Numbered from the stretch's first letter, positions 1-28,669 are shown. The stretch is DNA of 64,000 nt from Anaeromyxobacter sp. (GCA_049840735.1 JASGJN010000017.1:320001-384000); one strand, 5' to 3'. The notes: generated from the sequence alone by a model not told the origin. Made by a program: numbers and translations.

Positions 1-55
1 CCGCACTCGCACGCCCCGGCAGCAGCGCCGACGTGAGCTGGATCCAGAGGCTCAT
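1..55 (-). CDS. 5' end of the next operon gene (MSLWIQLTSALLPGRASA...), runs off the window; product unknown
   Basis: ATG at 55-53 overlaps the fliJ stop (ATGA), the same coupling seen throughout the operon. Confidence 0.5.
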   Translation of the reverse strand, partial: MSLWIQLTSALLPGRASA

Positions 56-543
56 CCCTGCCGCTCCCCGGGCCCTGCGCCCCGGCCCCCGCGCGAAGCG
101 TGCCGGCGCGAGAGCCACTCCTGGTCGTTCTCCCGGGCGCTGCGCGCCAGCGCGTCGCGCACGAACTCCGCCTGCCGCTCGTCCCGGTGCTTCTCGATCA
201 CGTCCACCCGCTGCTGATGCTCCAGGACCGAGCGGAGGACCTGGGTGCGCTCTGCCTCCAGCTCCGCCACGGTCACCGAGGCGCCGGCGATGCCGTCGCG
301 CAGCTGCGCGAGCCAGCGGAGGCAGGTGGCGTAGGCCCCAGGATCCACCTTGGCCTGGAGGGCGCGCGCCGCGCAGCGGCCCTGCTCCTCGTGCTGCGCG
401 CGCAGCTCCTCCACCCGCCGGACGGCCTGCTCCAGCGCGCGCTGGACCCTCCCCAGCTCCGCCTGGACGGCCTCGAGCTGCCACTGCCGCTGCTTGCGCA
501 CCGGCTCCAGCTCGTACTCGAACCCCCGCAGGTCCACGGTCAT
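52..543 (-). CDS. fliJ: FliJ-like flagellar/T3SS export stalk protein
   Basis: 163 aa coiled coil starting with F-x-Y-x-L-x-x-V-x-x-x-R; lies directly after fliI. Confidence 0.7.
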   Translation of the reverse strand: MTVDLRGFEYELEPVRKQRQWQLEAVQAELGRVQRALEQAVRRVEELRAQHEEQGRCAARALQAKVDPGAYATCLRWLAQLRDGIAGASVTVAELEAERTQVLRSVLEHQQRVDVIEKHRDERQAEFVRDALARSARENDQEWLSRRHASRGGRGAGPGERQG

Positions 544-2096
544 CGGCCGCTCCTGGGCTGGGCCGGCGGGCCGGGCGGACGGGCCGGCGCAGCGGCGCCG
601 GCGCGCTGCGGCGTGGGCGCGGCAGGCGCCGCTGGCCGCCGGGCGTTGCCGCCGTAGTCCGCCCGCTGCGGCGCCGCCGGCTGCGCCGCCTGCTGGCTCG
701 CGTGCTGGGCCTTGAGCTGCAGCACCTCGGCCAGCCCCTTCAGCGCGTCAGCCCGGCGGACCCCACCCTCCGACTGCCGCAGCCAGGCCTGCAGCCGCGC
801 CTGGCAGGCCAGGGCGGCGTCCAGCTCCGGGTTGGTCCCGGCCTCGTAGGCGCCCAGCTCCACCATCTGGCGGCTGCGCTCGAGCAGCGCCAGCAGCTTC
901 ACCGCCTCGGTCACCAGCAGCCGCTCCAGGTCGCTGGTGAGATCCGGGAGCAGGCGGCTCGCCGACTTGAGCAGGTCGATGGCCGGGTACAACCCCTGGT
1001 GCGCGATCGATCGGGAGAGGACGATGTGCCCGTCCAGGATGGCCCTGAGCGCGTCGGAGACCGGCTCGTTCAGGTCGTCTCCCTCGACCAGCACCGTGAG
1101 CAGCGCGGTGATGGAGCCGCCCGAGGCGGCCGTGCCGCACCGCTCGCACAGCTCCGGCAGCTCGGCGAAGACCGAGGGCGTGTAGCCGCGGGCGGTGGGC
1201 GGCTCGCCGGCGGAGAGCCCCACCTCGCGGCGCGCCATGGCGAAGCGGGTGATGGAGTCCATCATCAGCAGGACGTGCTTGCCCTCCTCGCGGAAGTGCT
1301 CGGCGATGGAGAGCGCGGCGTGGGCGGCGCGGATGCGGGCCAGCGCCGGCTGGTCCGCGGTGGCCACCACCACCACCGAGCGCCGGAGCCCCTCGGCCCC
1401 CAGGTGCTTCTCGATGAACTCCCGGACCTCGCGCCCGCGTTCGCCGATGAGCGCGATGACGTTCACGTCGGCCCGCACGTGGCGGGCGATCATCCCGAGC
1501 AGCGTGCTCTTGCCCACGCCGCTGCCGGCGAAGATGCCGGTGCGCTGCCCCTGCCCCAGCGTGAGCAGCGAGTCGATGGTCCGGATGCCGGTCTCCAGCA
1601 CGTGCTGGATGCGGGGCCGGGTCATCGGGTTGATGGGCGAGCCGCGCAGCGGCCGGGTTCGCGCGGGGCGCGGCGCCGCCAGGGCGTCGAGCGGCCGCCC
1701 GAAGCCGTCCACCACGCGGCCGATCAGCTCCTGCCCCACCCCGATGTCAGAGGCGTCGCCCAGCGCCAGGACCGTGCTGCCCACCGCCAGCCCCTTGGCC
1801 GTCCCGTAGGGCATGAGCGTCACCACGCCCGGCTGGACGCCCACCACCTCGGCCAGCACCGCCGGCGAGCAGGCGTCCTCGCCAGAGGCGATGGCCCCCC
1901 CGATCAGCCGCGCCACCAGGCCGTCCGAGTCGGCCACCGCATCCACGCCCGGCGGGACGACGGCGCAGAGCTCACCGACGCGGCTGCGCGGCCCCTCGGC
2001 CTCGATGGCCAGGCCGTGCAGCTTGCGCACGACGCCCACGCGCCGGTCGAGCTCGGTGCGCCGGATCGCGCCCGTGAGCCTGGCCAGGCGGCTCAT
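540..2096 (-). CDS. fliI: FliI/SctN export ATPase
   Basis: Walker A GIFAGSGVGKSTL, ALIGERGREVREF, Walker B LLMMDSITRFAMA, GEPPTARGY. Start MSRLARL at 2096 overlaps the fliH stop. Pro/Ala-rich C tail. Confidence 0.95.
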   Translation of the reverse strand: MSRLARLTGAIRRTELDRRVGVVRKLHGLAIEAEGPRSRVGELCAVVPPGVDAVADSDGLVARLIGGAIASGEDACSPAVLAEVVGVQPGVVTLMPYGTAKGLAVGSTVLALGDASDIGVGQELIGRVVDGFGRPLDALAAPRPARTRPLRGSPINPMTRPRIQHVLETGIRTIDSLLTLGQGQRTGIFAGSGVGKSTLLGMIARHVRADVNVIALIGERGREVREFIEKHLGAEGLRRSVVVVATADQPALARIRAAHAALSIAEHFREEGKHVLLMMDSITRFAMARREVGLSAGEPPTARGYTPSVFAELPELCERCGTAASGGSITALLTVLVEGDDLNEPVSDALRAILDGHIVLSRSIAHQGLYPAIDLLKSASRLLPDLTSDLERLLVTEAVKLLALLERSRQMVELGAYEAGTNPELDAALACQARLQAWLRQSEGGVRRADALKGLAEVLQLKAQHASQQAAQPAAPQRADYGGNARRPAAPAAPTPQRAGAAAPARPPGPPAQPRSGR

Positions 2097-3100
2097 CGGA
2101 AGAAGTCCTCCGTGTCGAACGGGACCGGCCTGGGGAGGGGCTCGGGCGGCGGCGCCGCCGCCGCCGGCCCGGCGATGACCGGGCGCGCCGCTGCTGGGGG
2201 CGCCACCTCGACCGCGGCCTCGCCGGTCGCCACCCCGTGCGCGGACTGCAGCGCCCGGGTCAGCGCCCGCAGCTGCGTCTCGAGCCTGGCGTCGAGCGTC
2301 CCCTCGGTGGTGCGGACCACGCACCCGCCCGCCTCGAGCCGCTCGTCCGCGACCAGCGCCACCGACTCGGCGCTCCCCGCCCGGTGACGGTCGATCCACT
2401 CGACGAGCTGCGCGTCGCCCTCCAGCAGCGCGCGGTCAACCGGGTGCAGGTGGATTGACAGGAGCGGCCCCCCGCTGCCGGCACCCGCCCGGCCGGTGGC
2501 CTCGTGCACGGCACGGCGCACCGCGGCCTCGACGCCCGCGCGCGTGACCAGCTGCTCCCCCACCAGCTTCGCGACGGCGGAGTGGCAGAGCGCCACCATC
2601 TCGTCCTCCGCCGCCTCGAGCCGCGCCATGAACGCCTGCTGGGCGCCAGCCAGGACGCGGTCGAGCAGCTGCAGCCGGCGCACGACCTCCTCGCGCCCTG
2701 CCCGCGCCTCCTGGTCCACCGTCCGCTGGGCCGCGCTCCGCCCCTCCGCCGACCCCTGCGCCCGCCCCTCCTCCAGGCCGCGGGCGAACCCCGCCTCCGC
2801 CGCCCGCTGCTCCGCCTGCTGCTGCTGCGACTCGCCCTGGTGGCGCGCGGCCCGCACGCCCTCCTCGTAGGCCGCGCGCAGCTCGGCCTCGCGGGTCCTG
2901 GCAGGCTCCTGCGCCGGCGCCTGCGGCACCGGCGCCGTCGGCGCCTCCGTCGCGGCGGGCGCGGCGTGGCGTGCGCGCGCGGCCCCCGGCCGCCGCAGCG
3001 AACGGGGCTGCTCAGCCAGCGTCACCTCCCGGAGCACGGCGCCGCCGGCGGCGGGCGCCGTCGGCCCCTGCGCAGGGCCTGGCGGCGGACGGCGCGTCAT
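2093..3100 (-). CDS. fliH: FliH/SctL ATPase regulator
   Basis: AxxxGxxxG repeats (AYEEG, GFARGLEEGRAQG) and C-terminal LEAGGCVVRTTEGTLDARLETQL; ATG at 3100 with GGAGG upstream. Confidence 0.9.
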   Translation of the reverse strand: MTRRPPPGPAQGPTAPAAGGAVLREVTLAEQPRSLRRPGAARARHAAPAATEAPTAPVPQAPAQEPARTREAELRAAYEEGVRAARHQGESQQQQAEQRAAEAGFARGLEEGRAQGSAEGRSAAQRTVDQEARAGREEVVRRLQLLDRVLAGAQQAFMARLEAAEDEMVALCHSAVAKLVGEQLVTRAGVEAAVRRAVHEATGRAGAGSGGPLLSIHLHPVDRALLEGDAQLVEWIDRHRAGSAESVALVADERLEAGGCVVRTTEGTLDARLETQLRALTRALQSAHGVATGEAAVEVAPPAAARPVIAGPAAAAPPPEPLPRPVPFDTEDFFR

Positions 3101-3705
3101 CGCCTCCCTCCGCGCCACAGCCCCCAGCGCGCCAGCCACCCGCGCTTCGTGCGCACGGGCTCAGCGGTGGTCACGACCTCCTCTAGCCTCGAGAGCAGGG
3201 CCTCCACCAGCGCCGCCTCGAGCGCCGGCGCCCGCCGGACCGGGGAGGCCGAGCCCAGCAGGTCGACCGTCAGCTGCTCCGAGCCCTCGAGGCGGCGGAG
3301 CACCTCCTCCTTCCACCGCCACGCGCGGATGCCGAGCACCCGCACCCGCAGGCCCGCGGGCTCGGACTCCAGCAGCTCCGCCAGCAGCCGGGGGTGCGCC
3401 GCCCCCAGGGCGTCGAGCCGGTCCTCCGGCAGCTCGGCCGCGGTCGGGACGGGCTGCTCCGGCTGGAGCGAAGGCGCCGGTGCCGATCCGGCCAGCGCCT
3501 CCTCCACGAACCGGGCCTCGGCGGGGATGCCGAGCTGCGCCAGCTCGCCGAGCAGCGTCTCCACGCCGCGCCGCTCCGACTCGGAGAGGCGCTCCAGGAT
3601 CCACCCGCGATCGTCCGGAGCGAGCGCGTGCAGGGTCAGGGCAGCCTGGCGAAGCCCTGGCGCGGGCTCCGCGGTGGTGGGGCCGAGCTGCTCGACGGGC
3701 CTCAT
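3097..3705 (-). CDS. Short, divergent protein at the fliG position (FliG N-terminal-like)
   Basis: Sits between fliF and fliH. LRQAALTLHALAPDD resembles the FliG-N KAAILLL-LG motif. Only ~202 aa. Confidence 0.5.
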   Translation of the reverse strand: MRPVEQLGPTTAEPAPGLRQAALTLHALAPDDRGWILERLSESERRGVETLLGELAQLGIPAEARFVEEALAGSAPAPSLQPEQPVPTAAELPEDRLDALGAAHPRLLAELLESEPAGLRVRVLGIRAWRWKEEVLRRLEGSEQLTVDLLGSASPVRRAPALEAALVEALLSRLEEVVTTAEPVRTKRGWLARWGLWRGGRR

Positions 3706-5168
3706 CGCCACTCCCCCTGGGCGCGGCTGTTGGTCCCGCGCATCCAGGCCCTGACCTGCTCCAGGGCTGCCTGGCGCTCCAGGTCGGTGAGCGGCTTGCG
3801 CGCCCGGCCCTGGCCGTCGCCGCGCCGCCCCGCCATCCGCCAGGCGAGCGCGATCAGGGCCAGGAGCCCCGCGACCCCGGCGGCCACTGCGAGCGGCCCG
3901 ACCGGCACCTCGCGCACCGTCGCGGTGGCCTCCGTCGCTGCCTTGGCCGGGGGCTCACCCCAGGAGGCCGCGACCGGCACCTCCGGCTTGGGCTGCAGCG
4001 GTCCGCTCAGCGCGTCGATCGACTGCACGACCACCGTGTCGCCGCGCTCCAGGTTGGCCCCGATGCTGGCCGCCACCACGCGCCGGAGCTGCTCCTCGCG
4101 CTGGGGGTCCAGCGGCACCTTCACCACGGCCACGGCCTGGATGCGCCGGATGGTGCCGGGCTGGCTGATGACCTGCTCCACGCGCCGTCCCACCGCGTAC
4201 TCCACTTCGCGCTGCGAGCTCCCTGCGCTCGGCGCCTCGCCGCTCGCCGCCGCCTGCACCGGCCCCCCCACGTCCCGGAGCGTCGCGCGCTCGTGCACCA
4301 CCACGCCCGTCGGGTTCCGGCCCTGGGCGCCGGGGGGCGCCATGACGTCCTCGGTCGTGGTCTGCACCCGGTCCATGTCGAGCGTGACGTCCACCGTGGC
4401 GAGCGCCTGCCCGGCGCCCAGCGTGCGGTCGAGGATCTCCGCCACCTTGCGGGCCAGGTAGGACTCGGTGTCCTTCTTGAGATCGAGCCGCCCGCCCCCG
4501 CCCTCCGCCGCGCCCTCCCCGGCGCTGCGGGTGAGCGCGACCCCGCTCTGGTCCACGATGGTCACGTCCTGGGTGGCGATGCCCGGGACGGCCGCCGAGA
4601 CCAGCCGCTGGATCCCGGCCACCTGCGCCGGCGCCAGCGCGCGGCCCTGCTTGAGCGTGAGGGTGATGGAGGCCGTGGACTTCTGGTGGGACGCCTTGAA
4701 GAGCCCCTGCTCCGGGAGGGCCAGGAGCACCCGGGCCTCGCGGACCTCGGACAGGGACAGGATGGTGCGGGTGAGCTCACCCTGCAGCGCCCGCTGGTAG
4801 TTGATGCGCTGCGCGAACTCGGTCATGCCGAAGTCGCTGTTGTTGAAGAGCTCGAAGCCGACCGCGCCGTGGAGCGGGAGGTCGCGCCCCATCAGCTTGA
4901 GGCGCGTGTTGTAGACGTCCTTCCGGTCCACCAGGAGCGCGGTCGCCCCCTCCTCGCCCGACGCCTCCACCTTGAACGGGACCTTGAGCCGCTCCAGCTC
5001 CTCGCTCATGGCCGCCGCGTCCTGCGCCGAGAGGTCGGCGAAGAGGATCTGGTAGTCGGTGCGCATGAGCCAGTAGCCGAGGACCGCGGTCATCGCGCAG
5101 ATGACCACCACGCCCCCGACCAGCCCGATGCGGGCCGCTCGCCCCAGCCGTCTCCAGAACTCCATCAT
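3702..5168 (-). CDS. fliF: FliF MS-ring protein
   Basis: N-terminal TM, GFELF..SDFGMTEF..RINYQRALQGELTRTI, ARVLLALPEQGLF, second TM, C-terminal VRAWM. Confidence 0.95.
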   Translation of the reverse strand: MMEFWRRLGRAARIGLVGGVVVICAMTAVLGYWLMRTDYQILFADLSAQDAAAMSEELERLKVPFKVEASGEEGATALLVDRKDVYNTRLKLMGRDLPLHGAVGFELFNNSDFGMTEFAQRINYQRALQGELTRTILSLSEVREARVLLALPEQGLFKASHQKSTASITLTLKQGRALAPAQVAGIQRLVSAAVPGIATQDVTIVDQSGVALTRSAGEGAAEGGGGRLDLKKDTESYLARKVAEILDRTLGAGQALATVDVTLDMDRVQTTTEDVMAPPGAQGRNPTGVVVHERATLRDVGGPVQAAASGEAPSAGSSQREVEYAVGRRVEQVISQPGTIRRIQAVAVVKVPLDPQREEQLRRVVAASIGANLERGDTVVVQSIDALSGPLQPKPEVPVAASWGEPPAKAATEATATVREVPVGPLAVAAGVAGLLALIALAWRMAGRRGDGQGRARKPLTDLERQAALEQVRAWMRGTNSRAQGEWR

Positions 5169-5249
5169 CTCCGCGACCTCTCCGCCGGCGTCCCTGCCGG
5201 CCGCTCACGTCCGCTGCCCTGCACCTCGACGAGCTCTTGCCGCGCCCGA

Positions 5250-5585
5250 TCAGACCTGCATCTTCATCAGGTCCTGGTACGCCTCGAGCAGGCGGTTCCG
5301 GACCTGCATCACCAGCTGGAAGGAGAGCCGGCTCTCCTCCATCCGGATCATCACCTGGTGCAGGTTCTGGACGTCCCCGACCGCCAGCCGCTGCATGTCG
5401 GCCTGCGAGGCCATGAGCTGCGTGTTCACCTTGTCGAGCCCCTGGGCCACCAGCTCGCCGAAGCTGGCGCCGCGGGCGGCCTCCGGCGCGACCACGCCGC
5501 CGTGGAGTCCGTTGTCGGTCGAGGCGGCCGCCTGCGCGGACGCGCCCTGCACCGCCGTCAGCCCCTGGATCGCGTCCCAGTTCAC
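5250..5585 (-). CDS. fliE: FliE basal body protein
   Basis: LHQVMIRMEESRLSFQLVMQVRNRLLEAYQDLMKMQV is the FliE signature C-terminus. Confidence 0.95.
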   Translation of the reverse strand: MNWDAIQGLTAVQGASAQAAASTDNGLHGGVVAPEAARGASFGELVAQGLDKVNTQLMASQADMQRLAVGDVQNLHQVMIRMEESRLSFQLVMQVRNRLLEAYQDLMKMQV

Positions 5586-6040
5586 TGGCCGCTCCCGATC
5601 TCCAGCGTGCGGAGCGCCAGCGTGCGGGCGGTGTTCATCGCCGCCAGGTTGGCCTCGTACGAGCGCAGCGCGCTCGACAGCTCGATCATCTCGGTGGCGC
5701 TGTCGACGCCGGGGTAGCTGATGAAGCCCTGGGCGTCGGCCAGCGGGTGGCCCGGCTCGTACACCCGGCGCGGCGCGGCGCCGGTCGTCTCCACGATCGC
5801 CTCCGGCACGCCCAGCGCCTGGGCCGAACGGTCCAGCCCGGTCTCGACCTGATCGGCGAAGGAGGGGGCGGCGGCGCCCAGGTGCGCGGTGCGGGCCAGC
5901 ACCCGGACAGGCTGGTAGGCGGCGCCGTCGGCGCCCTGCACGGTGTTGGCGTTGGCCAGGTTGGAGGCCGCAGCCTCCACCCGCGCGCGCTCCACCGACA
6001 TGCCGGCGGCGCTGATGGCGAAGGTCTTCGAGAAGTCCAT
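5582..6040 (-). CDS. flgC: FlgC proximal rod protein (alternative GTG start at 6079)
   Basis: ISAAGMSVER..NLANANT, YEPGHPLADAQGF..YPGVD, RSYEAN. Confidence 0.95.
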   Translation of the reverse strand: MDFSKTFAISAAGMSVERARVEAAASNLANANTVQGADGAAYQPVRVLARTAHLGAAAPSFADQVETGLDRSAQALGVPEAIVETTGAAPRRVYEPGHPLADAQGFISYPGVDSATEMIELSSALRSYEANLAAMNTARTLALRTLEIGSGQ

Positions 6041-6075
6041 CGACGTGTCTCCCTGTCCGTTCGCGCCCGAGGGCG

Positions 6076-6459
6076 TCACTTCTTCCCGTCGCTGACGGCC
6101 GCCGAGAGCACCGCCAGGTGCTTCGACATCGCCTTCAGCAGCGCCTGGTACTGGGTGGCGTTCTGGGCCATGCCCGCGACCTCCAGGTCCAGCTGCACCT
6201 TGGCCGGCACACCGCCGGCGGTGGAGACCGGCACCAGCCGGGCCTCCACGCCCTCCAGCGAAGTGGCGTCCAGGTAGCCCTGGGCCCCCAGCGCCGACCG
6301 GGCGTCCTCGAGCTGTCCCTCGAAGCTGACCGTGACGGGCACGTAGCCCTCCACGCTGGCGTTCGCGATGTTGGCGGCTGCCGCCTGCTGCCGGAGCGCC
6401 GCCGCGTCGAGCGCCTTGCCCAGCGCGGCCATGGTGATCGCCTCGATTCCCTCGGTCAC
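6076..6459 (-). CDS. flgB: FlgB proximal rod protein
   Basis: ALDAAALRQQAAAANIANA..GY.P..VSFE; V.LD.E...MAQNATQY. Confidence 0.9.
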   Translation of the reverse strand: MTEGIEAITMAALGKALDAAALRQQAAAANIANASVEGYVPVTVSFEGQLEDARSALGAQGYLDATSLEGVEARLVPVSTAGGVPAKVQLDLEVAGMAQNATQYQALLKAMSKHLAVLSAAVSDGKK

Positions 6460-6469
6460 GGCGCCTCCT

Positions 6470-7606
6470 CTACTGGATGACCAGCTCGGCGCGGAGCGCG
6501 CCGGCCGTCTTGATGGCCTGCAGGATGGAGATGATGTCGCGCGAGTTGGTCTTGAGCCGGGCCAGCGACTGCACCAGGTCCGCCACCGTGTTGTTGTCCG
6601 AGGTGGTGACCACGCCCGTGTCCTTGCCCTCGTGCACGTTCACGTAGGTGTTGGTCACGATCTCGGTCCGGACGCCCGGCCCGCTGCGCCAGGCGATGCC
6701 GGGCTGCGAGGCGTAGTTCTCCTCGACGATGGAGACCTTCAGGTCGCCGTGGGTGATGGCCACCGGCGAGATCCGGACGTCCCCGCCGGCCACCACCGTC
6801 CCGGTCCGCTCGTTCACCACCACGCGCGCGCGGCGGTCCGGATCGACGGTGACCGCCTCCAGCCGGGCCACGAACCGGACCAGCTGCGGCTGGTCGTCCG
6901 GGACCTTGATCGACACGGCCGACGCGTCGGTGGCCTCGGCGAAGGTCCCGCCCAGCTCGCTGTTGAGGGCCGCGGCGATCCGGTCGGCGGTGGTGTAGTC
7001 AGGATCCGCCAGCAGGAAGGTGATGTGCCGGTCCTCGCTCATCACCTGGGCGCTGACCCCGACCTCCACCGTGGCGCCGCCCGGCACGGAGCCCACCGTG
7101 GGGTGGTTCTTCTGCACCACGTTCCCGTTGGCGTCGTAGCGGTAGCCGCCCACCGAGAGCGGCCCCTGGGCCAGGGCGTGCACCACGCCGTCGGGCCCCT
7201 TGAGCGGGGTGAGGAGCAGGCTGCCGCCCAGCAGGCTCCGGGCGTCGCCGGCCGAGGTGACGGTCACGTCCAGCGTGTCGCCCTCGCGGGAGAAGGGCGG
7301 CAGCGAGGCGGACACCATCACCACGGCCACGTTCCGGCTCTGGATCTGGTCGGCGGGGACGGTGAGGTTGAACTGCGAGAGCACGTTGGAGAGCGTCTGG
7401 CGCGTGGTCCGGTTGTTGGGCGAGTCCCCGGTGCCGGCCAGGCCGGTCACGATGCCGTACCCGACCAGCGCGTTCTCGCGCCAGCCGCGCAGCTTCCCCA
7501 GGTCCTTCACCCGCACGGCCTCGGCGCCGCGCGCCGTCGGCGCAGCGAGCACGCCGGCCAGCAGCGCGGCGCAGAGGAGGATCGATCGACGGAGGTCGGT
7601 GCGCAT
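6470..7606 (-). CDS. flgI: FlgI P-ring protein
   Basis: RVKDL..LRGWRENALVGYGIVTGLAGTGD, NVAVVMVSASLPPF, VVVNERTGTVV, ILQAIKTAGALRAEL. Confidence 0.95.
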   Translation of the reverse strand: MRTDLRRSILLCAALLAGVLAAPTARGAEAVRVKDLGKLRGWRENALVGYGIVTGLAGTGDSPNNRTTRQTLSNVLSQFNLTVPADQIQSRNVAVVMVSASLPPFSREGDTLDVTVTSAGDARSLLGGSLLLTPLKGPDGVVHALAQGPLSVGGYRYDANGNVVQKNHPTVGSVPGGATVEVGVSAQVMSEDRHITFLLADPDYTTADRIAAALNSELGGTFAEATDASAVSIKVPDDQPQLVRFVARLEAVTVDPDRRARVVVNERTGTVVAGGDVRISPVAITHGDLKVSIVEENYASQPGIAWRSGPGVRTEIVTNTYVNVHEGKDTGVVTTSDNNTVADLVQSLARLKTNSRDIISILQAIKTAGALRAELVIQ

Positions 7607-8187
7607 CACAGCCCCAGGGCGTCCAGCAGCTGGCGCCACCAGCCGCGCTTGTTGCGCTCGGCCACGTCGCCCGCGCCGGTGTAGCTGATGCGGGCGTCGG
7701 CGAGCCGGGTCGAGAGCACGATGTTCCCGGCGGTCACGTCCTGCGGCCGGACCCGCCCCTCCAGCTTGACGTGCTGCGCCTCGCCGTTGACGGTCAGCGA
7801 CTGCTCGCCGCCGAGCCTGAGCTCGCCGTTCGGCAGCACCTCCTGCACCGTGACGGTGAGCGCGGCCAGGACGCGGTTGGCGCGCTGCGTGCTCCCGCCG
7901 CCGTCGAAGGTCCCGCGGACGTTGACCGAGCCGCCGTAGGCCTTGCGCGTGTCGTTGGCGGCGAGCCCCAGCGAGGCGTCGATGCCGTTGTTGCGCTGCG
8001 TGGAGGTCTCGGCGCTGGTGGCCGCCGAGGAGTTCTCGATGACCTGGACGGTGATGGCGTCCCCGACCTGGAAGGCCTTGGCATCGCCCGCCAGCGACCG
8101 GTAGGCCGTCCCCGGGTACAGGCTGTCGGCGCGCGCGACGCCCCCTGCCCCGGCCACCGCCAGCAGCAGCGCTGCGACCACTCTCAT
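7606..8187 (-). CDS. flgH: FlgH L-ring protein without a lipobox cysteine
   Basis: D.KAFQVGDAITVQV.E, V.EVLPNG.L...GE, G.VRPQD, STRLADARISY.G.G. Start MRVVAALLL at 8187 overlaps the flgA stop. Confidence 0.9.
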   Translation of the reverse strand: MRVVAALLLAVAGAGGVARADSLYPGTAYRSLAGDAKAFQVGDAITVQVIENSSAATSAETSTQRNNGIDASLGLAANDTRKAYGGSVNVRGTFDGGGSTQRANRVLAALTVTVQEVLPNGELRLGGEQSLTVNGEAQHVKLEGRVRPQDVTAGNIVLSTRLADARISYTGAGDVAERNKRGWWRQLLDALGL

Positions 8188-9991: not shown

Positions 9992-10037
9992 GCCTCTTCC
10001 TCCTCGCACCTGTGGCCCGCCCGCGGCGGGCGCCCGC

Positions 10038-14923: not shown

Positions 14924-14934
14924 GCCGGCCGGCC

Positions 14935-22400: not shown

Positions 22401-25400
22401 ACCCGGGCCGCCAGCGCCGTCGCGCCGTTCGAGGCCAGACTGGCCTCGGCCTCGCTGTACACGGCCACCGGCGGATAGGTGGTCTTCACCTGCCGCCCGC
22501 GGGCGTCGTAGGCGTAGGCGGTGGCCCGCTCCTGCCCGGCCAGCCCCGCCGCCTCGATGCGACGGGTCAGGTTGCCGAGCGCGTCGTACTCGAAGCGCGT
22601 GACCACCGCGGTGCTGACCGTGGTCCCGACCACCACCTTGCCGGTGGAGTCGTCCACCGTGGTGACGTCCACGGCCGGGTCGGTCTGCTGCACCAGCCGT
22701 CCCGCAGCGTCGTAGGCGTAGGTCCAGGTGACGCCCTTGGCGTTGGTGGTCGAGAGCCTCCGTCCGGCGCCGTCGTAGGTGCTGGACTCGACCTGCCCCA
22801 GCGCGTCGGTGCGGGCCGAGAGCTGGCTGGCGCCGTCGTAGGCGGAGGTCGTGACCTGGTCGCGCGCCGCGTCCGAGATCAGCGCGGCCGCGATGGCCGC
22901 TCCGCTCGCGCCGGGCGCCAGCCCGACCGTGGCGGTGGCGTAGAGCCGCGTGGAGGCCACCCGGCCCACGCCGTCATAGGACGTGCGGGTCACGTACCCG
23001 AGCGCGTCCACCGTGTAGGCCAGCCGCCCGGCGGCATCGTAGGCCGCCACCGTGGTCCGGTCGGCCCCCGCCGTCTCGACCAACCCGGTCAGATCCCCGT
23101 CCGCCTCCACCGTGAGCGCGCCACCGGCAGCGATGCGGGCCGCGTAGGCGCGGGTGCCCACCACGTTGCCCGCCCCGTCGTACCAGCGGCGGGTCACCGC
23201 GCCGCTCGCGTCCACCTCGTAGATGCGCCGGCCGGCGGCGTCGTAGGCGGCGCTCGAGACGCGCTTTTCGCCGGTACCGGCGACCACCGGCGCCACGGCA
23301 GCGGCCAGGGCCGAGGCATCGGTGGCAGTCGTCGGCGCGGCGATGCGGGTCGCGTAGGCCACCTGCCGCACCACGCTGCCGCCCGCGTTGTAGACGAGCT
23401 GCCGGACGCTTCCCAGTGCATCGACCGAGGTCGTCTGGCGGCCCGCGCGATCGTAGCCGAACAGCGTCACCCGGTCAGCGGCGCTGGCCGCCGCGCTGCT
23501 GGGCGAGGCCGTGGAGGCCACCGCCGTGGCGTAGGCGATCACCTTCACCACGTTGCCGCCCGCGTCGTAGACCCGCTGGGTCACGCCGCCCAGGGCGTCG
23601 GCGGTGAAGGTGAGCCGCTGGGCGGCGTCGTAGACGGAGCGGACGCGCACGTCCAGCGCGGGATCCTTGACCAGCGCCACGTTGGCGGAGAGGGCCGCCT
23701 CGGTGGCCGCGGTGCTGGCCGGGATGTACCTGGCGTAGGCCACCCGCTCCACCACGTTGCCGCAGGCGTCGTACTTCTGCTCCACCACCGCGCCCAGGGC
23801 GTCCAGCGTGAACCGGACCCGGTTGGCCTTGTCGTAGACCGTCCGGACCACCTCGTCGCGGGCCCCATCGGCCGCGGCTGGCGGAGCGGTGCCCGGGGTC
23901 CAGGAGGCCAGCACGATGCGCGTCGCGTAGACCCGCCGCTCGATCACGTTGCCGGCGCCGTCGTACTGGTAGCGCGTCACGCCTCCGGCGCCGTCCACCG
24001 ACCAGACCAGCCGGCCGTCGCGATCGAGCACGCGCCGCTCCACCAGGTCCGGCTGGCCCGCCGCGGCCGGCTGGAGCCGGCCCGCAACGTCCGCCGCGGT
24101 GCAGGCGACGGGCAGCGAGGTCAGCGAGATGACCTTGCCGTAGCGAATGTAGGCGGTGACGCGCCCCTCCGCGTCGTAATCGGTCTTGTGGACGCTGCCG
24201 GTCGCGTCGACCGTGTAGACCAGGCGCCCGCCCGCGTCGTGGACGAAGCGCGTGACGGCGCCGCGCGGATCCGTCCGCGCGACCAGCTGGCCGTTGGCGT
24301 CGTAGGTGAAGGTGTCGGTGAGGACGAGGCCGCCCGGATCCACGGTGGTGGACGTGCGCCGGCCCGCCGCGTCGTAGGCGTGCTGGGTGACGGCACCGCC
24401 GGGCTGGGTGACGGTCAGGAGCCGGCCGCCCAGGTCGTAGGCGTAGCGGGTGACCAGGTTCAGGCCGCCCGGATCGACCGTCTGCGTGAGGACATTGCCG
24501 GCCAGGTCGAAGGCGGTGTCGGTGATCACGCCGCGCGGATCGGTGACCCGGATCCGCTGCCCCTTGGCGTCGTAGGCGTAGCGCGTGACCAGGTTCAGGC
24601 CGGAGGGATCGACCGCGCGGGTGAGGACCCGACCGGCCGCGTCGTAGGTGTAGCGGGTGACCGTGCCGCGGGCGTCGGTCTCCTCGACCAGCTCGTCGCC
24701 GTCGTAGGTGCGCCGGGAAATGGTGCCGTCGGCGGCGGTGGTCTGCGTCAGGTGCCCGTCGGCGTCGTAGGCATGGGCGGTGACATTGCCGCGACCGTCG
24801 GTGACGCGCAGGACCTGGCCATGCCGGGTGCGCTCGGTGACCAGGGTCACGCCCTCCGGCGTGGTCACCGTCACGCTCCGCGCGGCCAGGTCGTAGCGGT
24901 AGCTGGTGACGTTGCCCAGCGCGTCCCGCTGCGTGAGCCTGCCGCCGAAGGCGTCGTAGGTGGTGACCCGCGTCCCGCCCAGCGCATCGACGGTCTGCAC
25001 CACCCGGCCCAGCCGGTCGTAGGTGGAGAGCTCGCGGTCCACGCCGTTCGGGTCGGTGATGCGGACCACCCGGCCGAAGGCGTCGAAGGCGAAGCTGCGG
25101 GTGAGGGCCAGGCCGGCGGGGTCGTCGATGGTGCGGGTGACCAGGCCGCGGCGATCGAAGAGGGCGGTCTCGACCAGCGTGCGTGCGTCCACCTGCTGGG
25201 TGGTCCGGCTCACCTCGCCGAACGCGTTGACCTCGGCGTCGGTGCGCGCCCCCAGCGCGTCGATGCTCGCGATGCGGGCACCGCGGGCGTCATACTCGCT
25301 TCGCTGAGTGGAGTTGCTGCTGGAGGCGCTGCGGGCCGCCGCCAGTGCGGCCGCGGCGGCCGTGTTGGCCGAGCTGGACAGCACGCCACCGACCAGGGCC

Positions 25401-28400
25401 GCCACCGTGGAGGCGGACAGGCGGGTGGCGAAGGCGCTGGTGGACTTGACGTGGCCCAGGGCGTCGTAGGTGGTCTCGGAGACCTCCCCAAGCGCGTTGA
25501 CCGTGAAGCGGAGCCGGCCGGCGTCGTCGTGGAAGAAGGCGGTGCGGCTGCCGGAGGCGTCGGTGGTGCTGATGCGCCGCCCCGCGGCGTCGTAGGCGTG
25601 CTTCACCCCGTGCTCCGCCCACACCGCGTCGATCTGGGCCTGGGTCAGGCCCGCCACGATCAGCGCCGCGCCGGTGGCGGAGAGCTCGGCCGTCACCCTC
25701 CCCTGCACGTCGAAGCGCTGCAGCAGTGTGCGCTGCTCGGTCGTGCCGAGCGCCACGGTGGTGCGGACCAGGTTACCGCTGCCGTCGTACTGGTACTCGG
25801 TGACGGTCCCTTCGGCGTTGGTCTGCCGGGAGAGCCGGCCCAGGGCGTCCCAGGTGGCGGTCGAGACCCCATCGGCAGCCTGGGTGGCCGGACGCAGCGA
25901 CGCCAGCGTTGCGGCGGTGGTGGGCGCGGCCGTGACCTTCCCGGCGTAGCGCCGCGACTGGACCAGCTGACCGTCCAGGTCGTAGGCCAGCTCGGTGAGG
26001 TAGCCCTCGCCGTCCACCTCGGCCACCCTCTGGCCGCGGGCGTCGTAGTACGCGAAGGTCGAGACGTCCCGGGCCGCGTCGGGGTCCACCAGGGCAGCCA
26101 CGTTGCCGCTGGTCCGGGCCGCCGCCACCGCCGCGGCGATGCCGGCAGCGTCGGTGAAGCCGCGCACCTTGGTGGCGTAGGCGATGGTCTGCACCAGCCG
26201 GCCCGAGCCGTCGTAGCGCAGCTCGGTCAGGTACCCCTCGCCGTCGATGGTGCCGCGCAGCCGGCCGTCGCGGTCGAATATCTGGCTGATGACGCGGTCC
26301 GCCGCGCTGGCCGTGACCTGCACCGTCCCCGCCGTCGGGGCCAGCGCCAGGGTCACGCCGATGCCGTTGCCCAGCGCGCTGGTCGGGACGGCGGTCGCGT
26401 AGCGCGTGGTGGAGAGCACGCGCGAGGCCGCGTCGTACTCGGTGCGGGTCACGTAGCCGAGCGCGTCCACCTGCCAAGCCAGCCGCCCGGCGGCGTCGTA
26501 CAGGTACCAGGCCTTGGCGTCCTGCGCGGTGATGGCCGGCCGGAGCGTGGCCAGCGCCGGGCAGGTCGGCGCTCCAGCCCCGTCCACCAGCTTCGAGACG
26601 TCGACCGGGGTGGCGTAGGCGATGGTCTGCGTGAGCTGGCCGGCCGCGTCGTAGGCGAACTCGGTCAGCGCGCCCGCCGACCCCACCTCGGCCACCTTGC
26701 GCCCGGCGGCGTCGTACAGCACCCAGCTCCGCTGGCCGGTGGGGCCCTGCGTCATGAGCAGCCGGCCGTCGGCGTCGTAGCTGTAGCGGGTGGTCCCCAG
26801 GGTGGTTCCAGCGGAGGACTCGACCAGGCTCACCAGCCGGCCCGCGCCGTCGAAGGTCGAGGTCCGGACCAGCCCGCCGGCCAGCGTGACCGAGATCTTC
26901 CCGCCGGCGTCGTCGTAGAGCACCACCGTCGGCAGCGACAGCGTCCCGTCGGAGGAGCGGCTAAGCGAGGAGACCACCCGGCCCAGCCCGTCGTAGACGG
27001 TCTGGGTGAGCCCCTTCCCGTCCGGCGTGACGGTCTGCAGCAGCTGGCCGCGGTCGTCGTACACGTACTGCGTGCTGGCCCCCGTGCCCGCCTTGCCCAC
27101 CCCGGTCGCGTCCACCTCGGCGTAGACCGTGGAGAGCTTCAGCTGGCCGCGCAGGTCGTAGGCGTAATCGGTGCGGGTGGTGCGGGTCAGGTCCTGCGCC
27201 GCCGCCCAGGCCTGCAGCTGGGCCTCGGTCGGCACCGCCGTCTCGGCCAGTGCGGAGACGTCGTAGACCGCGCCGCGGTACTCGATGGCGGCCGTCCGCT
27301 GCCCGGCCGCGTCGTACCGGTACTCCGTCACCCGCCCCTCGGCGCTGAGGACGAAGCGGAGCAGGCCGCGCTGGGCGGCGTCGCGGACGTAGCGGGTGGT
27401 GAGCGGCTGCGTGGCCCCGGCGCCGGCCTGGGCCGACTCGGTGAGGAGCTGGTTGCGCGCGTCGTAGGTGCGCTCCAGCGTGTTCCCGGCCGCGTCGACC
27501 TGCCGGAGCAGGTTGCCGCTGGCATCGTAGGTCATGGCCACCGTGCGGCCCAGGCCGTCGACGATGGAGGCGACGTCGCCCAGCGCCGTGTAGGCGTAGT
27601 CGAGCCGCGTGAGGCCGGCCGGGTTGCCCACCGTGACCCCGCTGCGGACCTGCGTCAGCTGCCCCTTGGCGTCGTGCTGGTAGACCGTGGCGACGCCCAG
27701 CGGGTCGGTGACCGTGGTCTTGCCCGCCGCGGCGTCGTAGGCGAACTGCGTCACCTTCTCTTCGCCGTCGGTGACCGAGGCGACCTTGTAGAGGCCGTCC
27801 AGCAGCACGTAGGTGAAGCTGAGCGTTGTGCCGTCGCCCTGGGTGAGGGAGGCGATGCGGTTGCTGGTCCCGTCGTAGGCGTAGGTCGTCTTGAAGACCG
27901 TCCCCGTCTCGCCCGCCGCCACCGCGGCCTGGCTGCGCGGGTTCAGGACCACGCTGACCGACTCGAGCCGGTTGAGCGCGTCGTAGCCGTAGGAGACGTC
28001 CAGGACCGTGAGCGCGCCATCGATCGAGAGCACCGTGCGGACCTCGAGCAGGTTGCGCCCGCTCGGCCCACCGTAGGTGAAGGTGATCGACTCCCCGCTG
28101 GCGCTGCTGATGCGCGTGAGCAGGTTGGAGGCGTCGTAGCCGTAGGTGAGCGCGTTCCCGCTCGCGTCCACCGAGGTCAGGATCCGCCCGAAGCTCCCCG
28201 CCTGATAGGTCTCGCGCCCGCCCAAGGCGCCGTCCGTCCAAGTGTAGGTGCCGTCGGCGTTGACGACGATGGCGTCGCGCGCCGAGCCCGCCGTCACCGA
28301 GGCCAGGTAGGCCTGCCGGGTCGCGTCCCAGAGGTAGTCGCAGAACGAGCCGTCCGCGTCATGCCGCCGCAGCTTCCCGCCGCCCAGGTCCTCGATGGCC

Positions 28401-28669
28401 CGCGTAGGCGCGCCCTGCCAGCCGTCGCCGTTGCCGTCGAAGTCGTAGCCGCCCTGGCTGTTGTAGGTGCGCAGCGCCGTCGCATCCGGCCCCCGCCCCG
28501 CCAGCAGCACGTCCGCGCGCTGCAGGACCAGATTGCCGGTGAAGGCGTTGACGTAGGCCCGCTCGCCGCCCTGCCCCTGCGCCGCCGAGCCCGACTGCCC
28601 CCGCAGACCGAGCGCGGAGAGCGAGCTGAGGTTGAGGCCGAGCGAATTCCCCGAAAAGACTGCGACCAT
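16429..28669 (-). CDS. Giant YD/Rhs-repeat + LysM + TM polymorphic toxin 1 (~4080 aa) with C-terminal alpha/beta-hydrolase (lipase) tip; 1-nt insertion near 20175
   Basis: ORFs 19145..28669 and 16429..20160 join as YDLRGNLVETKQP if the extra A is removed (compare 36720-36740). Dozens of YDxxGR repeats; LysM at ~18323-18463; TM helices; tip RGTE..DW..N..QG, GHSLGG, TFNAAG, late His. Confidence 0.9.

What the first reader, a model, noticed from the sequence alone, without database searches (positions are those of the whole stretch)
52..28669. Candidate new system: stripped flagellum-derived T3SS paired with giant LysM-Rhs polymorphic toxins
Seen: a compact operon for the export gate, ATPase complex, MS ring, rod and L/P rings lies <500 bp downstream of, and co-oriented with, a ~4080-aa YD-repeat toxin and its immunity gene. 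More family members lie upstream. Seen: no hook (flgD/E/K/L), flagellin, motAB, flgJ or flhF/fliA within the 17 genes, and the FliG- and FlgH-position proteins are atypical. Seen: the toxin has no PAAR/VgrG domain or Sec signal, and no T6SS or TcB gene is present, so it has no visible export route. Established: flagellar export apparatuses can secrete non-flagellar proteins, and the injectisome evolved from the flagellum. Inference: an independent repurposing of the basal body (rod plus L/P rings instead of a secretin) as a toxin export or display device for interbacterial competition. I recall reports of flagellar-type export genes in non-flagellated Lysobacter, so novelty needs a literature check.
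Basis: partly seen in the sequence, partly recalled or inferred. Interest (0 to 1): 0.92.

Follow-up and report, generated by a model that had tools for sequence, protein, structure and literature searches.

The report
Flagellum-derived apparatus linked to giant toxins
A second flagellum-like gene set with no filament or motor genes sits beside giant YD-repeat toxin genes, and the same pairing recurs in dozens of other bacteria, which suggests a flagellum turned into a toxin-export device.

Summary
The flagellar-type cluster and the adjacent YD-LysM toxin with its immunity gene are real. The cluster is less "stripped" than reported. It continues past the left edge with FliK-like, FlgD, FlgE, FliM-like, FliN, FliO, FliP, a FliA-like sigma factor and a TPR protein.

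It has no flagellin, FlgK/L, FliD or MotAB. Its FliG is cut down to the N and M domains. The genome holds a separate full flagellar locus about 165 kb away and a third FlhA-family (FHIPEP) locus.

The same 26-gene cluster is conserved across Burkholderiales and is rare in the window's own order. In an FlhA tree the window's copy nests inside the Burkholderiales clade, so it was probably acquired horizontally.

The giant toxins share an invariant N-terminus (MVAIVSGNSLGL...). It was found in 65 of 74 genomes chosen only by FlhA, against 16 of 401 sampled Burkholderiales. At least 14 of those 16 also carry the cluster. The toxin gene usually lies next to the cluster, and many copies sit behind a sigma-28-type promoter.

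Best reading: a non-rotary hook-basal body that exports or displays these polymorphic toxins. Export itself is inferred, not shown. In this assembly the toxin genes and flhB are frame-broken.

The parts
52..543 (-). FliJ
   Evidence: Pfam FliJ E=7e-7
540..2399 (-). FliI ATPase. The ORF runs to 2399; the alignment to the P. acidicola FliI starts at 2096.
   Evidence: Pfam ATP-synt_ab and T3SS_ATPase_C. NCBIfam FliI_clade1 532 bits against SctN 488. 70% identical to the P. acidicola FliI.
2093..3139 (-). FliH
   Evidence: Pfam FliH E=9e-10
3097..3711 (-). Truncated FliG homolog (204 aa) with N and M domains and no C-terminal torque domain
   Evidence: No Pfam hit on its own. A profile of 52 homologs matches PDB FliG 3hjl_A residues 59-189 at E=2e-6. 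hhalign against the genome's own FliG gives 77% probability. The eight best Foldseek hits are FliG chains, but E>=0.02. The genome's only FliG_C match lies in the other locus.
3702..5168 (-). FliF MS ring
   Evidence: Pfam YscJ_FliF and YscJ_FliF_C. TIGR00206 220 bits, cut-off 130.
5250..6459 (-). FliE, FlgC, FlgB (proximal rod)
   Evidence: Pfam
6470..7639 (-). FlgI P ring
   Evidence: Pfam FlgI E=5e-119
7606..8187 (-). FlgH L ring. The likely start, MRVVAALL..., has a signal peptide.
   Evidence: Pfam FlgH E=4e-46; translation
8184..9203 (-). FlgA
   Evidence: Pfam ChapFlgA
9200..10823 (-). FlgG and FlgF (distal rod)
   Evidence: Pfam; NCBIfam flgG_G_neg 309 bits, cut-off 253
10843..12963 (-). 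FlhA of the 'FlhA3' clade
   Evidence: Pfam FHIPEP E=8e-242. TIGR01398 FlhA 776 bits (cut-off 772); SctV 576 (cut-off 692). Tree.
12951..14060 (-). FlhB with the NPTH cleavage motif. In this assembly an internal stretch of about 135 nt (near 13655-13790) reads correctly only in another frame.
   Evidence: Pfam Bac_export_2; translations and comparison with the P. acidicola FlhB
14057..15201 (-). FliR and FliQ
   Evidence: Pfam
15677..16429 (-). Ankyrin-repeat protein with a signal peptide, the putative immunity protein. Its ATG overlaps the toxin stop codon by one base.
   Evidence: Pfam Ank_2/Ank; sequence
16429..28669 (-). Giant YD-repeat polymorphic toxin gene. From N to C it has the conserved N-terminus, DUF6531, YD repeats, LysM, a glycine/alanine-rich hydrophobic region and a lipase-like toxin domain. 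It is read as two ORFs, with a frame switch near 20190-20215.
   Evidence: Pfam RHS_repeat E=1e-197, DUF6531, LysM. Frame plot. The C-terminus matches PDB 7ubz_B 'T6SS lipase effector' at E=1.5e-19.
28744..28771 (-). Sigma-28-type promoter-like motif (CTTAAC-N16-GGATAA) about 100 nt upstream of the toxin start
   Evidence: The strict motif occurs 6 times in the 13.3 Mb scanned (both strands of the 6.67 Mb genome), and 4 of these lie upstream of YD genes. It is also present upstream of YD genes in other genera.
34167..37118 (-). Orphan YD-LysM C-terminal fragment in an IS-rich stretch
   Evidence: Pfam RHS_repeat and LysM; transposases nearby
54450..64000 (-). A second giant family member. It runs off the right edge, starts at window coordinate 74273, and is frame-broken near 58170 and again further upstream.
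   Evidence: Pfam; frame plot; N-terminus

Best explanation
The window holds one copy of a conserved two-part module.

Part 1 is a second, flagellum-derived type III apparatus, the 'FlhA3' cluster type, with 26 genes. It encodes the export gate FlhAB/FliOPQR, the ATPase complex FliHIJ, the MS ring, the rod, P and L rings, FlgA, the hook cap FlgD, the hook FlgE, a FliK-like protein, FliM-like and FliN proteins, a FliG cut down to its N and M domains, its own FliA-like sigma factor and a TPR protein. It has no flagellin, hook-filament junction proteins, filament cap or stator. It should therefore build a hook-basal body that cannot rotate or carry a filament (inferred).

Part 2 is a family of giant (4,000 to about 11,800 aa) YD-repeat polymorphic toxins. 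They share an almost invariant extreme N-terminus (MVAIVSGNSLGL..SSLATLG), followed by DUF6531, YD repeats, a LysM domain, a glycine-rich hydrophobic region and a variable C-terminal toxin with a cognate immunity gene. Here the toxin is lipase-like with an ankyrin immunity gene. In Paraburkholderia acidicola it is a GH-E nuclease with a SUFU immunity gene.

Proposed mechanism (inferred). Once the hook-basal body is complete, the sigma factor turns on the toxin gene from a sigma-28-type promoter, as flagellin genes are turned on in real flagella. The toxin's N-terminus serves as the export signal. The unfolded chain passes through the rod-hook channel and folds outside, either released or held at the hook tip. 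LysM and the hydrophobic region then help deliver the C-terminal toxin to neighbouring cells, and the immunity protein protects kin.

Shown: gene content, conservation, co-occurrence, adjacency and the promoter motif. Inferred: assembly, lack of rotation, export, and which cells are targeted.

In this genome the module was probably acquired horizontally from Burkholderiales. In this assembly it carries frame breaks in flhB and in the toxin genes, which may be assembly errors or decay.
For: Gene content:
- The genome's only Flagellin_N, FliD_N, FliG_C and FliM matches, and its flagellar-locus MotA match, lie in another locus at C17:485-538 kb.
- The FliG-position protein is a FliG N+M homolog.
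- FlhB keeps the NPTH motif.

Conservation:
- flhA is followed by flgF in 66 of 80 loci retrieved by FlhA, and 65 of these are fully colinear.
- A FliG-like hit was found in 52 of the 59 loci that reach FliF.

Co-occurrence:
- The toxin N-terminal profile (A1) was found in 45 of 50 and 21 of 25 genomes picked by FlhA similarity only, that is 65 of 74 distinct genomes.
- In an even sample of 401 Burkholderiales it was found in 16. All 10 genomes with FlhA3 at E<=1e-170 are among those 16, and 4 of the 5 further genomes checked also have an FlhA3-like gene.
- In the window's own order (363 genomes) the N-terminus occurs in 4. The cluster occurs in 3 of the 92 family genomes searched, and those 3 are among the 4.

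Adjacency:
In 15 the toxin start lies 18.9-27.3 kb downstream of the flhA start and is co-oriented, just after the sigma and TPR genes.
- Other arrangements keep the toxin gene next to the cluster: directly after flhA (L031, G530), divergent from TPR/fliQ (L005, L014, G743, G612), upstream and co-oriented (window, L008, L043, L056), and convergent on TPR (G069).

Regulation:
- The strict motif CT[AT]AAC-N14-17-[GCT]GAT[AG][AT] has sigma-28 spacing.
- It lies about 100 nt upstream of 17 of 38 YD genes examined.
- In the own genome there are 6 hits in 13.3 Mb, and 4 lie at YD genes. The other two YD copies differ from the motif by one base.
- Among the 7 background hits in 2.9 Mb of loci, two sit upstream of the TPR operon.

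N-terminus:
- It is invariant from Met1 in 29 sequences and has almost no charged residues in the first 22.
- In almost all of the 150 best of 1,212 library proteins (E<=1e-10) the match starts at or near residue 1.

Polymorphic-toxin logic.

Precedent:
- FliI-dependent secretion of non-flagellar toxins was shown in non-flagellated Lysobacter (PMC7688988, passages read).
- Carocin bacteriocins go through a flagellar T3SS (PMC8672553, listing and abstract only).
Against: - No experiment or structure shows export. Everything rests on comparative genomics.
- T3SS export of an unfolded chain of 4,000-11,800 aa would be unprecedented (my knowledge).
- G737, a complete genome, has two N-terminus-bearing genes but only 41% and 36% FlhA relatives. 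G065 (79% complete) also lacks FlhA3. G397 was not checked.
- 9 of the 74 FlhA3 genomes gave no N-terminal hit. All nine are MAGs.
- One search scored only two candidates per genome, and its threshold missed split alignments. The 401-genome table therefore undercounts FlhA3.
- The strict promoter motif is missing from 21 of 38 YD upstream regions. It cannot be assigned to the cluster's sigma rather than the primary FliA, because the primary flagellin promoters have a similar layout.
- Pfam Flagellin_N and FliD_N do not match the toxin N-terminus.
- The own genome has a T6SS sheath gene, and the toxin domain is homologous to a T6SS lipase effector. A T6SS route is therefore not excluded here.
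- In this assembly flhB and all six N-terminus-bearing toxin genes have broken frames.
- The genomes compared are relatives and not independent, so simple statistics overstate the association.
Confidence: 0.6

Rival explanations
1. The module is functional, but the apparatus is not the conduit. The hook-basal body acts as a checkpoint, sensor or surface organelle. Completion frees the cluster's sigma factor, which switches on the toxin. The toxin leaves by another route, such as T6SS, lysis or an unknown pathway.
For: The sigma-28-type promoter and the cluster-encoded sigma show regulatory coupling only. A T6SS sheath gene is in the genome. The toxin domain resembles a T6SS lipase effector. 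DUF6531 follows the N-terminus. G737 has the toxins without the cluster.
Against: No PAAR, VgrG or other known trafficking domain was found. The conserved signal-like extreme N-terminus tracks the FlhA3 cluster across genera. A full export apparatus with FlgD/FlgE is costly to keep for sensing alone.
Confidence: 0.2
2. The two are merely co-located. Cluster and toxin genes travel together on a mobile island, or the toxin genes simply accumulate there, with no functional tie.
For: The window's surroundings are rich in IS elements. Both parts are rare in the own order and were probably acquired together. Toxin copies also lie on other contigs.
Against: The linkage survives at least five different gene arrangements in distant genera. 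Co-occurrence is 65 of 74 against 16 of 401, and most of those 16 also carry the cluster. The promoter motif is shared with the TPR operon in two loci. The region upstream of fliQ is otherwise not conserved.
Confidence: 0.1
3. It is a true second motility flagellum that borrows flagellin, junction proteins, stator and FliG from the primary locus.
For: The genome has a complete flagellar locus 165 kb away on the same contig. FlhA passes the flagellar FlhA cut-off. Dual flagellar systems are well known (my knowledge).
Against: A truncated FliG is conserved in 52 of the 59 loci that reach FliF. No flagellin, FlgK/L, FliD or MotAB lies in the cluster here or in P. acidicola. The Xylophilus preprint also found no flagellin in this type. 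The primary and FlhA3 components are only about 30-57% identical.
Confidence: 0.05
4. In this particular genome the module is a decaying remnant: pseudogenised toxins and a broken flhB.
For: There are frame switches in the window toxin (near 20200), in the third copy (near 58170 and further upstream) and inside flhB. The open frames of the six N-terminus-bearing copies are only 316-3174 aa, against 4,000-11,800 aa elsewhere. IS elements are nearby.
Against: Unrelated genes of the primary flagellar locus are also frame-split: flhA in three pieces and fliD in two. That points to assembly indels. The other 20-odd cluster genes are intact and well conserved.
Confidence: 0.3

Closest known systems
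'FlhA3' third flagellar gene cluster of Xylophilus (bioRxiv 10.64898/2026.02.05.703958; passages read)
   Same: The gene content matches: FlgA-I, FlhAB, FliA/E/F/H/I/J/M/N/O/P/Q/R, no flagellin, and hypothetical proteins at the fliG and fliK positions. It is in the same order (Burkholderiales), has a patchy distribution, and its FlhA sits beside the flagellar class.
   Different: The preprint treats it as a candidate flagellar system of unknown role. It does not contain the term 'Rhs' (0 occurrences). The link to giant toxins, the truncated FliG and the promoter are not described in the passages I read. I could not see its supplements.
FT3SS-like system of non-flagellated Lysobacter enzymogenes OH11 (PMC7688988; passages read)
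   Same: Flagellar export genes are kept without flagellin. FliI- and FlhB-dependent secretion of non-flagellar toxic proteins is used in microbial antagonism.
   Different: There it is the degenerate primary flagellar set of a gammaproteobacterium. The cargo is small enzymes, and no dedicated linked toxin family or conserved N-terminal domain is reported. Here it is a separate conserved second system, present beside a full flagellar locus in this genome at least, with a dedicated giant polymorphic toxin.
Injectisome (non-flagellar T3SS)
   Same: It is a flagellum-related type III export apparatus used for protein delivery rather than motility.
   Different: This cluster keeps the flagellar rod, P and L rings, FlgD/FlgE and flagellar-type FlhA, FliF and FliP. 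Pfam assigned no secretin or needle protein to any cluster ORF.
T6SS-delivered Rhs/YD polymorphic toxins
   Same: Both have YD repeats, a variable C-terminal toxin with an adjacent immunity gene, and orphan C-terminal cassettes. The toxin domain is homologous to a T6SS lipase effector.
   Different: There is no PAAR or VgrG. No Rhs-associated core domain was found at E<=0.01, and no DPxG[LWIVM]-type core motif lies in the C-terminal ORF. The proteins are 3 to 8 times longer, carry LysM and a glycine-rich hydrophobic region, and have a distinct invariant N-terminus that tracks a flagellar-type cluster rather than a T6SS.
Carocin S1/S3 bacteriocins secreted via the flagellar T3SS of Pectobacterium (PMC8672553; search listing and abstract start only)
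   Same: Antibacterial toxins leave through a flagellar-type export apparatus.
   Different: That system uses the motility flagellum itself. The toxins are small, and no dedicated apparatus is involved.

Membership tests
Bacterial motility flagellum | Flagellin filament, hook-filament junction (FlgK/FlgL) and cap (FliD) encoded with or for the system | tested here: not met
   All Flagellin_N and FliD_N matches, and the FlgK-type Flg_bbr_C match, lie at C17:525-538 kb and none in the cluster. None was found in the P. acidicola cluster.
Bacterial motility flagellum | Torque generation: MotAB stator and the FliG C-terminal domain | tested here: not met
   The genome has one FliG_C match, in the other locus. 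None of the 10 MotA_ExbB matches lies within 160 kb of the cluster. The cluster's FliG homolog covers only the N and M domains.
Bacterial motility flagellum | Flagellar-type export gate, MS ring, rod, P/L rings and hook | tested here: met
   FlhA 776 bits (cut-off 772), FliF, FliP and FlgG above their equivalog cut-offs. FlgI, FlgH, FlgB/C/F/G, FlgD and FlgE are present.
Injectisome (NF-T3SS) | SctV-type gate protein, secretin ring, needle | tested here: not met
   The SctV model scores 576 bits, below its cut-off of 692. Every cluster ORF is assigned to a flagellar family or left unassigned, and none is a secretin or needle protein by Pfam. I did not run a dedicated secretin search of the genome.
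'FlhA3' cluster type (Xylophilus preprint) | Gene set FlgABCDEFGHI, FlhAB, FliAEFHIJMNOPQR, with no flagellin | tested here: met
   The same set is found in the window plus L001. The order is the same in 66 of 80 loci. I did not align directly with the Xylophilus sequences.
Rhs/YD polymorphic toxin | YD/RHS repeats with a variable C-terminal toxin and an adjacent immunity gene | tested here: met
   RHS_repeat E=1e-197. Lipase-like C-terminus with an overlapping ankyrin gene. The P. acidicola homolog ends in a GH-E nuclease followed by SUFU.
Rhs/YD polymorphic toxin | Rhs-associated core domain with a DPxGL-type autocleavage motif before the toxin | tested here: not met
   NCBIfam lists no Rhs-associated core model at E<=0.01. 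NF041261 RHS_core scores 294 bits against a cut-off of 2000. No DPxG[LWIVM] motif was found in the C-terminal ORF.
T6SS Rhs effector | N-terminal PAAR or VgrG, or genetic linkage to a T6SS | tested here: not met
   No PAAR or VgrG domain was found. The linkage is to the flagellar-type cluster. A T6SS sheath gene exists elsewhere in the genome, so use of that route is not excluded.
Flagellar late (filament-type) export substrate | N-terminal similarity to flagellin, FliD or FlgK | tested here: not met
   Flagellin_N (E<=0.001) and FliD_N (E<=10) searches of the genome do not hit the toxin N-termini. Pfam finds nothing in residues 1-60. The resemblance to the genome's own FliD N-terminus seen by eye has no statistical support.
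Flagellar late (filament-type) export substrate | Transcription from a sigma-28-type promoter | tested here: inconclusive
   The motif with sigma-28 spacing is present in 17 of 38 YD upstream regions and is highly specific in the own genome. Which sigma factor reads it cannot be tested with these tools.

The most novel reading that the evidence does not exclude
A third functional lineage of type III machines, beside the flagellum and the injectisome. It would be a non-rotating hook-basal body whose 'filament' is replaced by a single giant YD-repeat polymorphic toxin. The toxin is exported through the hook, held at its tip by the invariant N-terminus, and used as a contact-dependent weapon against neighbouring bacteria. 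The module is widespread in Burkholderiales and can transfer horizontally to other phyla.
Probability: 0.25. Interest if true: 0.95.

Novelty: new variant of a known kind. Interest (0 to 1): 0.85.

Why it matters
If the toxins leave through this apparatus, it would be a new secretion route for polymorphic toxins. It would also be a second, independent case of a flagellum converted into a delivery device, one that keeps the rod, L/P rings and hook rather than evolving a secretin and needle. That makes the long-discussed flagellum-to-injectisome transition directly testable in culturable soil bacteria.

It would give a function to the 'third flagellar system' that genome papers list as incomplete. 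It would also give a trafficking class to a family with at least 1,212 cluster representatives, whose members reach about 11,800 aa. The chain length would set a new upper bound for type III substrates.

Tried and rejected
- Complex prediction of the TPR protein (A3) with the toxin N-terminus (A1) gave no verdict. It is not used as evidence either way.
- My GC3-based frameshift scan was too noisy to estimate an assembly error rate. It gave about 160 candidates on C17, and some of those in the window stretch lie near ordinary gene boundaries.
- The 1047-aa ORF beyond the TPR gene (L001:8724-11867) was considered as another substrate. I set it aside because it is a repeat lipoprotein with no family hit.
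- No gene is conserved upstream of fliQ across loci.
- The search of earlier findings returned nothing for this genome or for the FliG-like protein.
- Seven literature searches found no paper linking a flagellar-type cluster to Rhs/YD toxins. The library lacks most subscription journals, so this is not proof of absence.
- The passages retrieved from Zhang et al. 2012 (PMC3482391) mention only an RNase linked to flagellar operons in Firmicutes.
- The first, strict peptide pattern for the N-terminus missed the homologs in other loci. Translating upstream of the tblastn hits recovered them.

Full report
WHAT IS IN THE WINDOW

The window is G000:C17:320001-384000 of a 6.67 Mb, 26-contig, 74% G+C genome that is 94% complete.

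On the minus strand, Pfam identifies FliJ, FliI, FliH, FliF, FliE, FlgC, FlgB, FlgI, FlgH, FlgA, FlgG, FlgF, FlhA, FlhB, FliR and FliQ between 52 and 15201. A 204-aa protein with no hit lies between FliF and FliH.

About 475 bp upstream and co-oriented lie two more genes:
- An ankyrin-repeat gene at 15677-16429. It has a signal peptide, and its ATG overlaps the preceding stop codon by one base.
- A YD-repeat gene spanning 16429-28669.

The YD gene is not one open frame in this assembly. The GC3 signal and the protein sense switch frame near 20190-20215, between ORF 19145-28669 and ORF 16429-20160. A second family member at 54450-74273 is broken as well.

THE OPERON CONTINUES PAST THE LEFT EDGE

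Reading C17 leftwards (locus L001) shows more genes: a FliK-like protein, FlgD (69% identical to the Paraburkholderia acidicola protein), FlgE, a FliM-like protein, FliN, FliO, FliP, a FliA/WhiG-like sigma factor and a TPR protein.

FlgH is ordinary once the over-extended ORF is trimmed to the signal-peptide start at 8187. FlhB keeps the NPTH motif. In this assembly, however, a stretch of about 135 nt (near 13655-13790) matches FlhB only in another frame.

WHAT THE CLUSTER LACKS

Searches of the whole genome gave these results:
- All 4 Flagellin_N matches lie at C17:531-538 kb, as do the FliD_N match and the FlgK-type match.
- The single FliG_C match lies at C17:488 kb, and the only FliM match above its cut-off lies at C17:512 kb.
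- A MotA match lies at C17:496 kb. None of the 10 MotA_ExbB matches is within 160 kb of the cluster.

The genome therefore has a separate full flagellar locus. It also has a third FHIPEP locus on C13, with YscJ/FliP/FlhB relatives.

The 204-aa protein is a FliG homolog that stops after the middle domain:
- A profile of 52 homologs matches PDB FliG 3hjl_A residues 59-189 at E=2e-6, and the 11 best PDB rows are FliG.
- hhalign against the genome's own FliG gives 77% probability over the middle domain.
- An AlphaFold model (pLDDT 82) has FliG chains as its eight best Foldseek hits, but with weak E-values of 0.02 or more.

No stator, no torque domain and no filament genes argue for a non-rotating hook-basal body. 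This is an inference.

THE CLUSTER IS A WIDESPREAD, KNOWN-BUT-UNEXPLAINED TYPE

FlhA retrieved 80 loci from genome contigs. Almost all are Burkholderiales: Ramlibacter, Variovorax, Acidovorax, Ralstonia, Cupriavidus, Paraburkholderia, Pandoraea, Massilia, Chitinimonas and others. tblastn identity over the aligned segment ranges from 51 to 82%.
- In 66 of 80 loci flhA is followed by flgF, and 65 of these are fully colinear with the window.
- 52 of the 59 loci that reach FliF have the FliG-like gene.

A 2026 preprint on Xylophilus describes the same gene set as a third, flagellin-less 'FlhA3' type that sits beside the flagellar class. It assigns no function and does not contain the term Rhs (passages only, supplements not seen).

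The components are flagellar rather than injectisome type. FlhA scores 776 bits against a cut-off of 772, while SctV scores 576 against 692.

PROBABLE HORIZONTAL TRANSFER INTO THIS GENOME

In the window's own order (363 genomes) the FliG-like marker was found in 2 genomes. In its family, FlhA3 was found in 3 of 92 genomes: G000, G043 and G069.

In a 90-row FlhA tree the FlhA3 sequences form a clade with 100% support, apart from nine other FlhA paralogs taken from the same genomes. The three sequences from the own genus nest deep among the Burkholderiales sequences. The tree was a quick LG+G4 search with a small outgroup.

THE TOXIN FAMILY

The six copies in G000 share their first 60 or so residues. 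Homologs next to the cluster in Telluria, Ramlibacter and Chitinimonas share the same start. In 29 N-termini the consensus is MVAIVSGNSLGL(S/N)L(S/T)SLATLG, invariant from Met1 and almost free of charged residues.

A profile of residues 1-110 finds 1,212 representatives at E<=1e-10 among 1.84 billion. In almost all of the 150 listed, the match starts at or near residue 1. Open frames in other genomes run from 4,000 to 11,836 aa.

The architecture, from N to C, is: N-terminus, DUF6531, YD repeats, LysM, a glycine/alanine-rich hydrophobic stretch, then a variable toxin.
- In the window the toxin is lipase-like. It matches PDB 7ubz_B 'T6SS lipase effector' at E=1.5e-19.
- In P. acidicola it is a GH-E nuclease followed by a SUFU-family gene.

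No PAAR, VgrG or Rhs-associated core domain was found.

THE LINKAGE TEST

(a) Genomes chosen only by FlhA similarity. The N-terminal profile hit 45 of 50 and 21 of 25, which is 65 of 74 distinct genomes. The nine misses are all MAGs. Five loci were left out of this count because they either supplied rows of the query alignment (L005, L014, L031) or had been searched beforehand (L008, L056).

(b) An even sample of 401 Burkholderiales.
- 16 genomes have the N-terminus.
- 10 have FlhA3 at E<=1e-170, and all 10 are among the 16.
- Of the other six, five were checked. G394, G612, G726 and G563 carry an FlhA3-like gene, seen as split or partial alignments. G737, a complete genome, does not. G397 was not checked.
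- One search scored only two candidates per genome and misses split alignments, so FlhA3 is undercounted there.

(c) The window's own order. The N-terminus is in 4 of 363 genomes: G000, G043, G065 and G069. Three of these carry the cluster. G065 is 79% complete and showed only a 42% FlhA relative.

(d) Position.
In 15 the toxin start lies 18.9-27.3 kb downstream of the flhA start and is co-oriented, right after the sigma and TPR genes. One is upstream and co-oriented (L043), and one is convergent at about 36 kb (L020).
- Other layouts also keep the gene adjacent. It lies 249 bp after flhA in L031 and directly after flhA in G530. It is divergent from TPR/fliQ in L005, L014, G743 and G612. It is convergent on TPR in G069.
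- The TPR gene tends to stay beside the toxin gene when the order changes.

These genomes are relatives, so the counts are not independent events. Even so, the pairing persists through several rearrangements and across families.

A SHARED PROMOTER MOTIF

About 100 nt upstream of many toxin starts lies CT(A/T)AAC-N14-17-(G/C/T)GAT(A/G)(A/T). The spacing is that of the sigma-28 consensus, which I recall rather than take from a call.

The strict form was found in 13 of 21, 3 of 5 and 1 of 12 upstream regions examined, 17 of 38 in all.

In the whole own genome it occurs 6 times in the 13.3 Mb scanned (both strands). Four of these lie upstream of toxin N-termini, and the other two toxin copies differ from the motif by one base.

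In the 80 loci there are 7 hits in 2.9 Mb. One is the L031 toxin promoter, and two lie just upstream of the TPR operon.

The cluster encodes its own FliA-like sigma factor. The motif cannot be assigned to it rather than to the primary FliA, because the primary flagellin promoters have a similar layout.

READING

The best-supported explanation is a dedicated module. A non-rotary, filament-less hook-basal body has as its late, sigma-28-type-controlled product a giant polymorphic toxin, which is exported or displayed through it.

Shown: content, conservation, co-occurrence, adjacency and the motif. Inferred: assembly, export, the signal role of the N-terminus, the chaperone role of the TPR protein, and the target.

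Points against:
- There is no direct evidence of export.
- The substrate size would be unprecedented.
- G737 and G065 carry the toxins without the cluster.
- 21 of 38 upstream regions lack the strict motif.
- No flagellin or FliD model matches the N-terminus.
- The genome has a T6SS sheath gene, and the toxin domain is related to a T6SS effector.

STATE OF THE MODULE IN THIS GENOME

flhB, the window toxin and the other toxin copies are frame-broken. So are flhA and fliD of the primary flagellar locus, which suggests assembly indels. Real decay cannot be excluded. No sequencing run was listed for checking.

LITERATURE

Seven searches of the held library found no report that links a flagellar-type cluster with Rhs/YD toxins.

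Precedents for non-flagellar cargo through flagellar export apparatuses are Lysobacter enzymogenes OH11 (PMC7688988, passages) and Pectobacterium carocins (PMC8672553, listing and abstract start only).

The passages retrieved from Zhang et al. 2012 (PMC3482391) do not describe this family.

VERDICT

The cluster type has been noted in print. Its pairing with a dedicated giant toxin family, the truncated FliG and the shared promoter appear to be new.

Noticed in passing
window 13655-13790 (-): Inside flhB a stretch of about 135 nt encodes the conserved FlhB sequence only in a different frame from the rest of the gene. The ORF stays open by chance.
   Followed up: partly
window 29000-54000: This is a stretch of lower G+C (62-72%) with IS3-type (32891-34156 and 39788-41051), IS66-type (38757-39725) and DDE (50089-51327) transposase genes. 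It also holds an orphan YD-LysM C-terminal fragment (34167-37118).
   Followed up: partly
window 54450-64000 and beyond, to window coordinate 74273 (L002): This is a second giant family member. It would be about 6,600 aa if read through at least two frame breaks, and it has its own copy of the promoter motif at window coordinate 74381.
   Followed up: partly
G000:C17:485000-538000: This is a complete primary flagellar locus with FliG, MotA, FliM, FlgK/L, two flagellins and FliD. Its flhA reads in three frame pieces and its fliD in two, so frame breaks are not confined to the toxin genes.
   Followed up: partly
G000:C13:678000-693400: This is a third FHIPEP locus with YscJ/FliF-, FliP- and FlhB-like genes. 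In the FlhA tree it groups apart from the two flagellar-type groups of FlhA and is probably an injectisome-type T3SS. A separate FliI-like gene lies at C17:171981-173123.
   Followed up: no
G000:C17:398041 (+) and C2:114740 (-): These are the two strict promoter-motif hits in the genome that are not upstream of a YD gene N-terminus. Their downstream genes were not examined.
   Followed up: no
L001:8724-11000 (-): This gene encodes a lipoprotein with about ten tandem domains of roughly 90 aa and no family hit. It lies directly beyond the TPR gene and is not conserved next to the cluster in P. acidicola.
   Followed up: partly
L056 (record titled MAG: Ensifer sp.): Its FlhA3 nests among Comamonadaceae sequences in the tree and the locus has the Burkholderiales gene order. 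The contig may be misbinned or the cluster may have been transferred.
   Followed up: no
G365 (genome of L014) and G839 (genome of L081): These Chitinibacteraceae genomes carry 7 and 8 matches to the toxin N-terminus. One open frame reaches 11,836 aa.
   Followed up: no
L025, L026, L031, L046, L057, L072, L073: In these Oxalobacteraceae loci the cluster is permuted or split. The order fliI-fliJ-flgE-...-fliP-sigma-TPR precedes fliQ-fliR-flhB-flhA, and the rod and ring genes are not within 10 kb.
   Followed up: no
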